From a virus (lineage: Duplodnaviria > Heunggongvirae > Uroviricota > Caudoviricetes), in IMG/VR virus record IMGVR_UViG_2703718786_000008: DNA of 28,315 nucleotides; one strand, given 5' to 3'. Positions within the stretch are counted from its first letter, which is position 1, and every line of letters starts with the position of its first letter. The position numbers were made by a program. Of this stretch, positions 18,001 to 21,000 are shown one piece after another.

Positions 18001-21000
18001 CTGGGAAATCGACCTGACGGTACAGGGCGGTGAGCGGTATTTTTTCTGCAATGAGCTGAATGAAAAAGGGGAGCCGGTCACCTGGCAGGGGCGGCAATAT
18101 CAGGCATACCCGATTGACGGCAGTGGCTTTGAGATGAGCGGGAAGGGCAGCAGTGCCCGCCCGTCGCTGACGGTGTCGAATCTGTTCGGTCTGGTCACCG
18201 GAATGGCGGAGGACCTGCAGAGCCAGGTGGGGGCCACGGTGGTCCGCCGCCGGGTGTATGCCCGTTTTCTGGATGCGGTGAATTTTGTGGCGGGCAATCC
18301 GGAATCGGACCCGGAGCAGGAGCTGAGCGACCGCTGGGTGGTGGAGCAGATGTCAGAGCTGACGGCCATGACGGCCTCGTTTGTGCTGGCAACACCGACG
18401 GAGACGGACGGAGCGCTGTTTCCCGGTCGCATCATGCTGGCGAACACCTGTATGTGGGATTACCGGGGAGATGAATGCGGGTATAACGGTCCTGCGGTGG
18501 CGGATGAGTTCGATAAACCCACCACCGATATCCGTAAGGACAGATGCAGCAAGTGCATGCGCGGGTGTGAGATGCGCGGCATGGTGGCTAATTTTGGCGG
18601 TTTCCTTTCCATTAACAAACTTTCGCAGTAAATCCAATGACACAGACTGAATCAGCGATTCTGGCGCATGCCCGGCGGTGTGTGCCTGCGGAGTCGTGCG
18701 GCTTCGTGGTGAGAACGCCGGAGGGGGAGCGGTATATCCCTTGTGTGAATATCTCTGCAGAGCCGGAGGCGTATTTTCGTATTGCACCGGAAGACTGGTT
18801 GCGGGCAGAGATGCAGGGGGAGATTGTGGCACTGGTCCACAGTCATCCCGGTGGTCTGCCCTGGCTGAGCGAGGCCGACCGGCGGCTGCAGATAAAAAGT
18901 GCACTGTCCTGGTGGCTGGTCTGCCGGGGGGAAATTCATAAATTCCGCTGTGTGCCACATCTGACAGGACGGCGCTTTGAGCACGGGGTGACGGACTGTT
19001 ACACGCTGTTCCGGGATGCCTACCATCTGGCGGGGACTGAAATGCCGGATTTTCATCGCGGGGATGACTGGTGGCGCAACGGTCAGAACCTTTACCTGGA
19101 CAATATGGCGGTCACCGGCTTTTACCGGGTGCCCCTGTCCTCTGCACAGGCGGGCGATATTCTGCTGTGCTGCTTTGGTGCTTCGGTACCGAACCATGCC
19201 GCCATTTACTGCGGCAACGGTGAGCTGCTTCACCATCTGCCTGAACAACTGAGTAAACGGGAGAGGTATTCCGAAAAATGGCAACGACGAACGCATTCTG
19301 TCTGGCGTCACCGCCACTGGCACGCATCTGCCTTCACGGGGATTTGCAACGATTTGGCCGCCGCCTCAGCCTGTATGTGAACACGGCAGCGGAAGCCATC
19401 CGTGCCCTGTCGATGCAGATGCCGGGATTCCGCCGTCAGATGAACGAAGGCTGGTACCAGATACGTATTCGCGGTGAGGACACGGCACCGGAGGCGGTGT
19501 ACGCCCGTCTTCACGAACAGCTGGGTGAGGGAACGGTCATCCACATTGTGCCGCGACTGGCCGGGGCCGGAAAGGGTGGACTGCAGATTGTGCTGGGGGC
19601 GGCAGCCATCGTGGGCTCTTTCTTCACTGCCGGGGCATCAATGGTGTTATGGGGTTCAGCCCTGGCAGCCGGTGGTTTTTCTGCCACCACGATGCTGTTT
19701 TCACTGGGGGCCAGCATGATTCTGGGTGGTGTGGCTCAGATGCTGGCCCCGAAGGCTAAAGTACCGGAGTACAAAAGCACGGATAACGGCAGACAGAACA
19801 CGTACTTTTCCTCGCTGGATAACATGATTGCCCAGGGGAACCCGATGCCGGTGCCTTACGGTGAAATGCTGGTTGGCTCCCGGCGAATCTCCCAGGACAT
19901 CAGTACCCGTGATGAAGGCGGTGGCGGAAAGGTCGTGGTTATCGGGCGGCAGGGGTAAAAAGAATAAAAAAATCCCGCAGTGTTGCGGAGCTGCGGGAGA
20001 GTTACGAAGATTAACTATAGAGAATTATTCTTATGTCACGACAAAAAACATTAACGCAGAGAAATTATTAGCACCACAGTCAGTTTGTGAAAATGTGAAG
20101 ATATTCAGAATTTTTATTCAGTGATGATACAGGCATCCTCCGGGATGCCTGTTGTTTTTGTGCGTAACAGTTATCACAGTAAAGGGTGAGACAATGGGCA
20201 AAGGTGGCGGCAAGGCGCACACGCCGGTAGAGGCAAAGGACAATCTTAAGTCCACGCAGATGATGAGCGTGATTGACGCCATTGGTGAAGGGCCGATTGA
20301 AGGTCCGGTGAAGGGGCTGCAGAGTATCCTGGTGAACAAAACCCCGCTGACGGACACGGACGGTAATCCTGTGATACATGGTGTGACCGCGGTCTGGCAC
20401 GCCGGGGAGCAGGAGCAGACACCACCTGAAGGCTTTGAGTCCTCCGGAGCTGAAACCGCACTGGGCGTGGAAGTGACGAAGGCAAAGCCGGTGACGCGCA
20501 CCATTACATCCGCGAACATTGACCGCCTGCGGGTCACCTTCGGGGTGCAGTCACTGGTGCAGACCACGTCAAAGGGTGACCGAAACCCGACATCCGTCCG
20601 CCTGCTGATTCAGTTACAGCGTAACGGTAACTGGGTGACGGAAAAGGATGTCACCATTAACGGCAAGACCACCTCGCAGTTTCTGGCGTCGGTGATTCTG
20701 GATAATCTGCCTCCCCGTCCTTTTGACATCCGGATGGTCCGGGAGACAGCGGACAGCACCTCGGACCAGCTGCAGAATAAGACGCTCTGGTCGTCATACA
20801 CCGAAATCATCGATGTGAAACAGTGCTACCCGAACACGGCGATTGTGGGGCTGCAGGTGGATGCGGAGCAGTTTGGCGGTCAGCAGATGACGGTGAACTA
20901 CCATATCCGCGGTCGCATCATCCAGGTACCGTCAAACTATGACCCGGAAAAACGCACGTACAGCGGCATCTGGGACGGCAGCCTGAAACCGGCATACAGC

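What the first reader, a model, noticed from the sequence alone, without database searches (positions are those of the whole stretch)
19959..20193. AT-rich hairpin-bearing insert of about 235 bp between tail genes I and J: candidate small RNA or moron remnant
Lambda I and J are separated by only a short spacer. Here the spacer is about 235 bp, strongly AT-rich, and bounded by two GC-rich inverted repeats. The first (19973-19998, with an A7 tract upstream) is oriented as a minus-strand terminator. The second (20130-20162, followed by a T-run) is a plus-strand terminator just before J. No ORF of convincing size or codon usage lies inside. This promoter-less hairpin-flanked unit could be a small non-coding RNA, a decayed moron, or a transcriptional attenuator setting J levels relative to upstream tail genes.
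Basis: seen in the sequence. Interest (0 to 1): 0.5.

Follow-up and report, generated by a model that had tools for sequence, protein, structure and literature searches.

The report
Prophage small-RNA gene between tail genes
The extra 235 bp between tail genes I and J holds a small regulatory RNA gene on the opposite strand, an unannotated relative of the known prophage sRNAs PasB (EPEC) and EcOnc22-24 (EHEC), followed by a terminator-like hairpin in front of J of the kind phage lambda also has.

Summary
The I-J spacer is 235 bp (19959-20193), against 60 bp in lambda.

The left about 159 bp (19959-20117) is a self-contained minus-strand sRNA cassette. It has a U7-tailed terminator (19998-19966), an RNA body of about 77-92 nt, a sigma-70 promoter (-10 AATAAT at 20069-20064) and a conserved CRP-like palindrome (20094-20109). 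So the unit is not promoter-less.

The cassette belongs to the same family as PasB of EPEC E2348/69 and EcOnc22/23/24 of EHEC Sakai. Both occupy exactly this I-J slot, antisense to the tail genes. Both are Hfq-dependent and were seen on Northern blots at about 83-85 nt. A covariance model built without window-type sequences scores the window at 73.8 bits (E about 4e-12). The body is only about 75% identical to either relative, so this is a diverged allele.

The right hairpin (20129-20160) is a tail-sense terminator-like element. Lambda has an unrelated one at the same position.

Covariation in both stems is weak. Function here is inferred from homologues and was not measured.

The parts
19278..19958 (+). 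Tail assembly gene I (left boundary of the spacer)
   Evidence: ORF. Pfam PF06805 Lambda_tail_I, E 6.4e-16.
19959..20117 (-). The whole sRNA cassette: terminator, body, promoter and upstream box. This is the unit that recombines and duplicates.
   Evidence: Its right edge is the breakpoint shared with the ~340-bp spacer class (...GAATTTTTAT|). It is also the repeat unit of the tandem arrays in L166. BLAST hits covering only query positions 1-159 show the same boundary.
19966..20057 (-). Predicted PasB/EcOnc22-family sRNA, 92 nt if it starts 7 nt after the -10. The 5' end would be near 20042 (77 nt) if it matches the annotated 5' end of PasB.
   Evidence: Covariance model R1 was built from 15 relatives with no window-type sequence. 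It gives 73.8 bits, E 3.9e-12, over the full model length. The PasB 3' end (1466261) aligns to 19966 and its annotated 5' end (1466343) aligns to 20042.
19966..19998 (-). Intrinsic terminator of the sRNA: stem UCCCGCAG/CUGCGGGA (19998-19973) followed by U7 (19972-19966). Probable Hfq-binding 3' module.
   Evidence: The stem is paired in 99.3% of cells across 41 distinct relatives, while the loop varies from 4 to 14 or more nt. The published PasB 3' end falls at the end of this U-run.
20008..20019 (-). Most conserved single-stranded motif of the RNA body (RNA: GUUAAUCUUCGU). Candidate seed or Hfq contact.
   Evidence: This is the only well-conserved block in the body in alignments A2 and A3. 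Zhu et al. 2026 place the proposed PasB seed just upstream of the terminator. Inference only.
20064..20091 (-). Sigma-70 promoter of the sRNA: -35-like TTCACA (20091-20086), 16-nt spacer, -10 AATAAT (20069-20064).
   Evidence: 10 of 12 matches. The same promoter is TTCACA-16-TATAAT (11 of 12) at the validated PasB locus. A -10-like hexamer sits at a fixed distance in most of the 35 unique non-sodC relatives, though it is degenerate in a few.
20091..20112 (.). CRP-like 22-mer AAATGTGAAGATATTCAGAATT. The core TGTGA-N6-TCAGA is at 20094-20109. An A/T tract continues to 20117.
   Evidence: The core matches the CRP consensus at 9 of 10 positions. TCTGA-N6-TCACA is present in 35 of 35 unique upstream regions of model hits. 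The N6 varies, and 36 nt to the model start is kept in 33 of 35. That CRP binds here is inferred, not shown.
20129..20160 (+). Tail-sense terminator-like hairpin (10 bp, loop UCCG; 20129-20152) plus U-rich tail (20153-20160), 34 nt before the J start.
   Evidence: Paired in 97.9% of cells in 14 variants, with one C-G/U-A exchange. Lambda and the ~340-bp class have unrelated hairpin plus U-run elements at the same position.
20161..20193 (+). J leader with Shine-Dalgarno-like AGGGTGAG (20183-20190).
   Evidence: Sequence. Conserved with the hairpin as one module in the relatives.
20194..23670 (+). Tail tip gene J (right boundary of the spacer).
   Evidence: Pfam FNIII-A_GpJ 6.6e-43 and Phage-tail_3. 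RefSeq annotates gpJ at the identical locus (H41).

Best explanation
The spacer is two modules placed side by side.

Module 1 (19959-20117) is a complete small-RNA gene transcribed against the tail operon. RNA polymerase starts from a sigma-70 promoter (-10 at 20069-20064) and reads leftward for about 77-92 nt. It stops at the GC stem plus U7 that abuts the stop codon of gene I. The product is a member of the PasB/EcOnc22-24 family of prophage sRNAs. By analogy with those relatives, it is made in the lysogen, bound and stabilised by Hfq through its U-rich 3' end, and acts in trans by base-pairing with host and prophage mRNAs. The body differs from prophage to prophage while the promoter and terminator are kept, so each allele probably has its own target set. 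A conserved CRP-like palindrome upstream of the promoter suggests the gene is switched on by cAMP-CRP when glucose is low or in stationary phase.

Module 2 (20118-20193) is the J leader. It carries a tail-sense hairpin plus U-run that behaves like an intrinsic terminator. It most likely stops stray tail-sense transcription before J in the lysogen, and Q-modified polymerase reads through it during lytic growth.

Shown here: the anatomy, the homology, the synteny, and the conservation of promoter geometry. Taken from the literature: expression, size and Hfq dependence of the homologues. Inferred: expression of this allele, trans action, CRP control, and the role of the second hairpin.
For: Same locus and same strand as validated sRNAs.
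- PasB (83 nt, minus strand, 1466343->1466261) lies between I (ends 1466255) and J (starts 1466496) of E2348/69 prophage PP6. It was validated by Northern blot, fell 6.8 log2 units in one of the paper's two differential-expression tables (taken here as delta-hfq against wild type) and had 37 RIL-seq interactions.
- EcOnc22/23/24 of Sakai lie in the I-J spacers of Sp15, Sp14 and Sp11, antisense to the tail genes. They run at about 85 nt on a Northern blot and are destabilised in delta-hfq.
- The first 23 nt of the EcOnc22 Northern probe match the family RNA exactly, just 5' of the terminator.

Homology.
- Model R1, built without any window-type sequence, hits 20057->19966 at 73.8 bits, E 3.9e-12.
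- Pairwise identity is 74% to PasB and 76% to the EcOnc22 type.
- 73 of 80 phage loci chosen only by J similarity carry a hit on the strand antisense to J.

Promoter.
-.
- A fixed 36 nt separates the palindrome from the model start in 33 of 35 unique relatives, while the intervening sequence varies.

Modularity.
- The cassette occurs with three different right-hand partners, and in tandem arrays of up to four.

CRP idea.
- The half-sites are invariant and the N6 varies.
- PasB is higher in overnight LB than in DMEM, while CRP-repressed Spf shows the opposite pattern.

Second hairpin.
-.
- Lambda's 60-bp spacer has its own hairpin plus U-run.
Against: - No expression data exist for this allele or this strain.
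- The body is only about 75% identical to either validated relative. It falls outside 'PasB' as surveyed by Zhu et al., who report only a few nucleotide differences among variants.
- Covariation is weak. The terminator stem has one compensatory pair in 41 distinct sequences. The tail-sense hairpin has one, and 128 of 500 shuffles do as well.
- The fold of the RNA as a whole is not unusual (z = -1.6).
- The 5' end is ambiguous. The strong -10 predicts 20057, but the annotated PasB 5' end maps 15 nt further in, at 20042.
- The CRP-like site would be centred at -44.5 from the first start or about -59.5 from the second. Neither is the canonical -41.5 or -61.5. One such palindrome in 28 kb is what chance gives (about 1 expected).
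- The LB against DMEM contrast also differs in growth phase.
- No plus-strand RNA ending at the second hairpin is listed in the parts of the published tables I read.
Confidence: 0.8

Rival explanations
1. The minus-strand RNA works mainly in cis. It is perfectly complementary to the I-J junction of the late tail mRNA. It could pair with that mRNA during lytic growth and trigger cleavage or alter J translation, setting the I:J ratio. Alternatively, late transcription could silence the sRNA by collision. This does not exclude trans action.
For: The gene is always antisense to the I-J junction, in 73 of 80 loci. The cassette abuts the I stop codon. The tail-sense strand opposite the body carries SD-like AAGGAG/AGAGAA motifs.
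Against: PasB has 37 trans partners on Hfq in RIL-seq. It is expressed in uninduced lysogens, where tail genes are almost silent (I has base mean about 5 and J about 15). Tandem arrays of up to four different alleles make little sense for a purely cis role. The RNA does not overlap the J ribosome-binding site, which lies 125 nt or more away.
Confidence: 0.15
2. The second hairpin is a true attenuator that lowers J expression relative to the upstream tail genes during lytic growth.
For: A hairpin plus U-run immediately before J recurs with three unrelated sequences: lambda, the window type and the ~340-bp class. J is needed in few copies per virion (established lambda biology).
Against: Late lambdoid transcription is Q-antiterminated and reads through intrinsic terminators (established knowledge). 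The sodC-class spacers have no such hairpin next to J. Covariation is not significant. No measurement exists.
Confidence: 0.2
3. The spacer is an inert leftover. It would be the 3' end and terminator of a lost moron such as sodC plus chance promoter-like sequence, with no RNA product of its own.
For: In the 851-bp class, the same body and terminator lie downstream of sodC without the promoter. The stems show almost no covariation.
Against: The promoter, its spacing and the upstream palindrome are conserved across bodies that have diverged to about 75% identity. Homologues give discrete Hfq-dependent bands. Cassettes are duplicated as whole units. IS insertions are the only disruptions seen.
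Confidence: 0.06
4. The spacer encodes a small protein, either 12 aa on the + strand from 20034 or 20 aa from 20124.
For: Both ORFs exist in the window sequence. SD-like GAGAA lies 8 nt upstream of the first ATG.
Against: Frames are broken by indels between alleles. The 20-aa ORF runs through the hairpin, and the substitutions that keep the hairpin paired would change its amino acids. There is no SD before the second ORF.
Confidence: 0.02

Closest known systems
PasB sRNA of EPEC E2348/69 (Pearl Mizrahi et al. 2021, PMC8550237; surveyed by Zhu, Shabalina & Storz 2026, bioRxiv 10.64898/2026.05.13.724894)
   Same: Identical genomic slot (I-J spacer) and strand. The terminator stem is the same. 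The promoter is the same (TTCACA-16-TATAAT against AATAAT). The upstream palindrome and the tail-sense hairpin module are the same. The regions flanking the RNA body look about 90% identical in the alignment.
   Different: The RNA body is only 56 of 83 identical over the annotated PasB, or 74% over the long form. The published survey describes PasB variants as differing by a few nucleotides and usually one per genome, so this allele lies outside that definition. Nothing is known about its targets.
EcOnc22/EcOnc23/EcOnc24 of EHEC O157:H7 Sakai (Tree et al. 2014, PMC4104026, Table S2)
   Same: I-J spacers of Sp15, Sp14 and Sp11, antisense to the tail genes, about 85 nt, destabilised without Hfq. 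76% identical to the window RNA and 98.4 bits with model R1.
   Different: A different body allele. Targets are unknown. The link to PasB is not made in the papers I read: the PasB note column is blank, and Zhu et al. contains no 'EcOnc'. Peak coordinates in the paper are for NC_002695.1 and lie about 130 nt off in version 2, so identity rests on the probe sequence.
Anti-sRNAs AgvB/AsxR (EcOnc01-03)
   Same: Prophage-encoded, short and Hfq-bound. They form a family with a conserved 3' part and variable 5' part, and several alleles occur per genome.
   Different: They sit in the PR' moron site after Q, not in the tail operon. They have Rfam families (RF02702, RF02703), and neither hits the window. 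No sequence similarity.
Morons of lambdoid phages (Juhala et al. 2000), for example sodC at the same I-J junction
   Same: An autonomous promoter-gene-terminator unit inserted between two late genes. Lower G+C than its neighbours. Transcribed independently of the late operon. sodC occupies this very slot in other prophages.
   Different: The cargo is an RNA rather than a protein, and the unit is only about 159 bp.
Hairpin in the 60-bp I-J spacer of phage lambda
   Same: A GC stem plus U-run on the tail-sense strand a few tens of nt before the J start.
   Different: No detectable sequence similarity (local score 15 against 14.5 +/- 2.1 in shuffles). Lambda has no sRNA cassette. I found no published function.

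Membership tests
PasB / EcOnc22-24 prophage sRNA family | Encoded in the spacer between tail genes I and J, antisense to them | tested here: met
   Window: 19966-20057 on the minus strand, between I (ends 19958) and J (starts 20194). PasB and EcOnc22-24 loci checked.
PasB / EcOnc22-24 prophage sRNA family | Sequence and structure similarity to experimentally detected members | tested here: met
   Model R1, built without window-type sequences, gives 73.8 bits, E 3.9e-12, full length. 74-76% pairwise identity.
PasB / EcOnc22-24 prophage sRNA family | 3' stem-loop followed by poly-U (intrinsic terminator and Hfq module) | tested here: met
   UCCCGCAG/CUGCGGGA plus U7.
PasB / EcOnc22-24 prophage sRNA family | Own promoter at the conserved distance | tested here: met
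   TTCACA-16-AATAAT, at the same place as in E2348/69. Geometry conserved. This is a prediction; no start site has been mapped.
PasB / EcOnc22-24 prophage sRNA family | Discrete, Hfq-dependent transcript of about 83-85 nt | not testable with these tools
   Known only for the homologues.
PasB in the narrow sense of Zhu et al. 2026 | Differs from E2348/69 PasB by only a few nucleotides | tested here: not met
   56 of 83 identical over the annotated PasB. blastn aligns only the terminator (33 nt). So this is a family member, not a PasB allele in the narrow sense.
Anti-sRNAs AgvB/AsxR | Match to RF02702 or RF02703, and location in the PR' moron site | tested here: not met
   No Rfam hit at gathering score or at E<=10. 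The location is the tail operon (describes the anti-sRNA site).
CRP-dependent promoters | TGTGA-N6-TCACA site | tested here: met
   TGTGA-AGATAT-TCAGA at 20094-20109, 9 of 10. The half-sites are invariant in 35 of 35 relatives.
CRP-dependent promoters | Site centred near -41.5 (class II) or -61.5 and multiples (class I) | tested here: inconclusive
   The centre (20101.5) is at -44.5 from the predicted start 20057, or about -59.5 to -60.5 from 20041-20042. The start site is not mapped.
CRP-dependent promoters | CRP binding and cAMP dependence | not testable with these tools
   Only a correlation is available: PasB is up in overnight LB and Spf is down.
Intrinsic (Rho-independent) terminators, second hairpin | GC-rich stem followed directly by a U-run on the transcribed strand | tested here: met
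   10-bp stem with 6 GC pairs, then TGTTTTTG. Kept in 14 variants.
Intrinsic (Rho-independent) terminators, second hairpin | Actual termination of transcripts | not testable with these tools
   No 3'-end data were available.
Morons | Autonomous promoter and terminator, foreign base composition, inserted between conserved phage genes | tested here: met
   Absent from lambda.
Morons | Protein-coding cargo | tested here: not met
   No conserved ORF.

The most novel reading that the evidence does not exclude
The I-J junction of lambdoid prophages may be a dedicated slot for exchangeable sRNA cassettes. These cassettes share a fixed frame: a promoter that is probably cAMP-CRP-responsive, plus an Hfq-type terminator. 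The frame encloses a fast-diverging targeting body. PasB (EPEC) and EcOnc22-24 (EHEC) would be alleles of this one system. Cassettes move between prophages by recombination and can stack in tandem arrays of up to four. A polylysogen would then carry a panel of differently targeted, glucose-sensitive riboregulators.
Probability: 0.35. Interest if true: 0.55.

Novelty: new member of a known kind. Interest (0 to 1): 0.33.

Why it matters
The spacer is unannotated in all the GenBank and RefSeq records I looked at, and it has no Rfam family. It nevertheless occurs in about a third of complete E. coli genomes (1890 of 5426), at up to 11 places per genome.

Recognising it as an sRNA gene joins two literatures, EPEC PasB and EHEC EcOnc22-24. 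It also shows that the published picture of PasB as nearly invariant and single-copy covers only one allele of a much more varied family.

If the conserved palindrome really is a CRP site, these prophage RNAs would tie prophage-borne regulation to the host's carbon status. That is directly testable.

For the window itself the result is modest: an ordinary, intact member of a known family.

Tried and rejected
- **Rfam.** No family at gathering score in the window, at the PasB locus or at the Sakai locus. At E<=10 only terminator-driven noise appeared.
- **AgvB/AsxR anti-sRNAs.** This was my first recollection. I rejected it because they sit after PR' rather than in the tail operon.
- **Plus-strand promoter for an RNA ending at the second hairpin.** None was found by the scan or by eye. 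No plus-strand RNA from this spacer appears in the parts of the published tables I read.
- **Small ORFs.** Not conserved.
- **Homology between the lambda spacer and the window spacer.** Not above shuffles.
- **RNAalifold on a raw MAFFT alignment of 33 alleles.** It gave no structure because the 5' arm was misaligned. I replaced it with per-sequence folding and a model-based alignment.
- **Covariation.** Both stems are almost invariant, so they give little support either way.
- **Genome-contig scan.** The degenerate box pattern gave mostly chance hits in AT-rich genomes. Only E. albertii and a few tiny, probably contaminant contigs looked real, so that scan was poorly spent.
- **EcOnc22-24 coordinates.** At first they seemed to fall on the wrong side of the spacer. 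The paper uses NC_002695.1 and the probe sequence resolved the question.
- **Literature search for a known lambda terminator before J.** Nothing found.
- **The palindrome as a statistical signal in the window.** Not significant alone (3 found, 0.98 expected). Its weight comes only from conservation.
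Full report
**1. The observation**

The window carries a lambda-like tail module. H is at 15034-17607, M, L and K follow, I is at 19278-19958 and J is at 20194-23670. The I-J spacer is 19959-20193, 235 bp. In lambda, I ends at 15444 and J starts at 15505, which leaves 60 bp.

The spacer has 37.9% G+C, and 30% between the hairpins. The flanking genes have 59.9% and 57.4%.

- 19973-19998 is preceded by A7, which makes it a minus-strand terminator.
- 20129-20152 is followed by TGTTTTTG, which makes it a plus-strand terminator.

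Both strands of the spacer fold far better than shuffles (z = -4.95 and -4.61).

It points at the first hairpin.

**2. What the left part is**

Rfam has nothing here. BLAST shows the spacer in 1890 of 5426 complete E. coli genomes, at up to 11 places per genome and 60-100% identity. It is also present in 149 phage records, mostly Stx-converting phages, and I saw no ncRNA annotation under any listed match.

The literature gave the identification. PasB is an 83-nt Hfq-dependent sRNA of EPEC E2348/69. It is listed at NC_011601.1 1466343->1466261 on the minus strand, between E2348C_1436 and E2348C_1437. In that record, gene I ends at 1466255 and J starts at 1466496. PasB therefore sits in the I-J spacer, antisense to the tail genes.

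Aligning that locus to the window places the PasB 3' end at 19966, the end of the U-run. It places the annotated 5' end at 20042. The PasB Northern probe is the window's hairpin 1 apart from a few loop bases.

**3. A second, older name for the same thing**

Tree et al. (2014) list EcOnc22, 23 and 24 as homologous Hfq-bound RNAs of Sakai prophages Sp15, Sp14 and Sp11. They run at about 85 nt on a Northern blot and are destabilised without Hfq.

All three coordinates fall in I-J spacers, on the strand opposite the tail genes. The paper's coordinates are for NC_002695.1 and lie about 130 nt off in the version I could read. The Northern probe GGGAGAGAACGATGAAGATTAAC... settles the matter. Its first 23 nt match the family RNA exactly, just 5' of the terminator.

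The papers I read do not connect PasB with EcOnc22-24. A 2021 review lists the EcOnc22 targets as unknown.

**4. Membership tested independently**

I built a covariance model (R1) from 15 alleles that exclude the window's body type. The set includes PasB and the EcOnc22 type.
- With filters off, R1 finds window 20057->19966 on the minus strand at 73.8 bits, E 3.9e-12, over the full model length. The next hit scores 18.8 bits.
- Pairwise identity of the window RNA is 74% to PasB and 76% to the EcOnc22 type. Those two are 74.5% identical to each other.
- Among 80 IMG/VR loci chosen only because their J N-terminus resembles the window's, 73 have an R1 hit antisense to J. The rest are a more diverged sub-family (L028, L030), contig ends, sodC-class loci or IS insertions.

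The window element is therefore a family member. It is not 'PasB' in the narrow sense of Zhu et al., who describe variants that differ by a few nucleotides.

**5. Anatomy of the cassette**

Comparing 62 unique modules and 35 unique upstream regions of R1 hits gives a fixed frame. Read in the RNA sense, it consists of:
- an A/T tract;
- a palindrome, TCTGA-N6-TCACA;
- 24 nt of variable sequence;
- a -10-like hexamer (TATAAT, AATAAT, TATCAT or CATAAT in most alleles, degenerate in a few);
- 6 nt;
- a conserved GCGUUA start;
- a U-run;
- a variable body of 40-50 nt;
- a conserved GUUAAUCUUC(G/A)U block;
- the stem CCCGCAG/CUGCGGG with a loop of 4 to 14 or more nt;
- a U-tail.

The right edge of the unit is at window 20117. 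That is where the ~340-bp spacer class switches to different sequence. It is also the repeat boundary in L166, which carries four tandem cassettes between I and J, and only the last of them is followed by the tail-sense hairpin. L161 has at least three cassettes, and L114 and L129 have two.

**6. The 5' end is unsettled**

The strong -10 (11 of 12 matches at the PasB locus) predicts a start at 20057. That gives 92 nt here, 98 nt for PasB and 91 nt for the EcOnc22 type.

The RNA-seq-based PasB annotation starts 15 nt further in, which corresponds to 20042 and 77 nt here. A weak TAnnnT hexamer lies in front of that position.

The published sizes (83 nt and about 85 nt) do not discriminate between the two starts.

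**7. The palindrome**

AAATGTGAAGATATTCAGAATT (20091-20112) matches the CRP consensus AAATGTGATCTAGATCACATTT (established knowledge). The match is 9 of 10 in the two pentamers.

In this window alone that is not remarkable: 3 such sites were found where 0.98 is expected. The weight comes from comparison.
- Both half-sites are present in 35 of 35 unique non-sodC relatives found by a model that does not include the promoter.
- The N6 varies.
- The distance to the RNA start is fixed in 33 of 35.

PasB is higher in overnight LB than in exponential DMEM. Spf, which CRP represses (established knowledge), behaves the other way.

Against the idea, the site is centred at -44.5 from 20057 or about -59.5 from 20042. 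Neither is the textbook -41.5 or -61.5. The two growth conditions also differ in growth phase. I rate CRP control at roughly even odds.

**8. The second hairpin**

The second hairpin belongs to a separate module, 20118-20193, which contains the hairpin, the U-run and the J leader. The same module follows cassettes of quite different body types.

The ~340-bp class replaces it with an unrelated, stronger hairpin plus UUUCUCUUU. Lambda's 60-bp spacer contains GAAACCGCC-TGCG-GGCGGTTTTGTC at the same relative position, with no detectable sequence similarity. The sodC class has nothing comparable next to J.

A terminator-like hairpin before J is thus a recurrent feature of this junction, and it is analogous rather than homologous. 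Relative to lambda, the extra DNA in the window is essentially the 159-bp sRNA cassette.

Its role is inferred. It may act as an insulator in the lysogen, or as an attenuator or mRNA-end stabiliser in lytic growth. I found no RNA ending there in the parts of the published tables I read.

**9.

- Terminator stem: 99.3% of cells are paired in 41 distinct sequences. Five of seven pairs never vary, and there is one G-C to A-U exchange.
- The diverged sub-family keeps CCCG/CGGG and swaps CAG/CUG for UAAUA/UAUUA. It could not be aligned reliably.
- Tail-sense hairpin: 97.9% paired, with one C-G/U-A pair and U-G intermediates. 128 of 500 shuffles do as well.

Covariation therefore neither proves nor disproves the structures. 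The support comes from the variable loops, the mapped 3' end of PasB and the Northern sizes.

**10. The same slot as a moron site**

The 851-bp spacers carry Cu/Zn superoxide dismutase (Pfam Sod_Cu, 3.9e-32) on the antisense strand. Its own terminator follows, and then a PasB-like body and terminator without the promoter. This is the best argument for the 'remnant' rival. It applies to that class and not to the intact window cassette.

**11. Verdict**

The finding is real and the 'small RNA' guess is right. The RNA is on the minus strand and has its own promoter.

It is an unannotated, diverged member of a known prophage sRNA family. The window itself is ordinary. Wider points came out of the comparison:
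- PasB and EcOnc22-24 belong to one family.
- The family has many alleles.
- Cassettes occur in tandem arrays.
- A CRP-like box is conserved upstream of the promoter.

All functional statements for this allele are inferences from homologues.

Noticed in passing
L166 316-1229 (IMGVR_UViG_2728369607_000007); also L161, L114, L129: Four PasB-like cassettes of different body type stand in tandem between I and J. Each has its own terminator, -10 and palindrome. They are separated by ~60-nt linkers that look like remnants of the 3' end of gene I, which suggests unequal recombination between prophages. The 2026 survey reports Pas copies as distal, not tandem.
   Followed up: partly
L010 350-1200 and nine other loci with 851-bp I-J spacers: A Cu/Zn superoxide dismutase gene (sodC, Pfam PF00080) sits in the I-J slot on the antisense strand. 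Its terminator follows, and then a PasB-like body and terminator that lack the PasB promoter. This may be a read-through or 3'-UTR form of the sRNA, or a dead copy.
   Followed up: partly
L012 and about 20 other loci with ~340-bp spacers; L003 746-805 (lambda): Three unrelated sequences provide a hairpin plus U-run on the tail-sense strand just upstream of J: lambda, the window type and the 340-bp class. I found no published function for the lambda one.
   Followed up: partly
L084 (Sakai NC_002695.2 2902836-2902926) against Tree et al. Table S2: The published EcOnc22-24 peak coordinates (NC_002695.1) are about 130 nt away from the RNA in the current record version. Taken at face value, they would point to the wrong half of the spacer.
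   Followed up: yes
L051 about 640-750; L073 about 780-1060: Insertion sequences have landed in the cassette. In L051 the insertion lies just downstream of the palindrome, replacing the -10 and the RNA body. In L073 it replaces the sRNA. These were the only disrupted copies seen among the 80 J-anchored loci.
   Followed up: no
window 20071-20159, + strand: The sRNA model gives a weak second hit (18.8 bits, E 0.08) on the tail-sense strand ending at the second hairpin. It is probably driven by the terminator alone, and I found no promoter for it.
   Followed up: partly
L028 and L030 I-J spacers; L166 764-930; one module each in L114 and L129: A more diverged sub-family of the cassette has a longer terminator stem (UCUCCCGUAAUAUU/AGUAUUACGGGAGA) and a different body with GGUGACUAUUC in place of GUUAAUCUUC. 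It keeps the palindrome. Model R1 does not detect it at E<=0.01.
   Followed up: no
window 14039-14054 and 15026-15041: Two further one-mismatch matches to TGTGA-N6-TCACA lie in the tail-gene region. Their number is about what chance gives, and I did not examine them.
   Followed up: no
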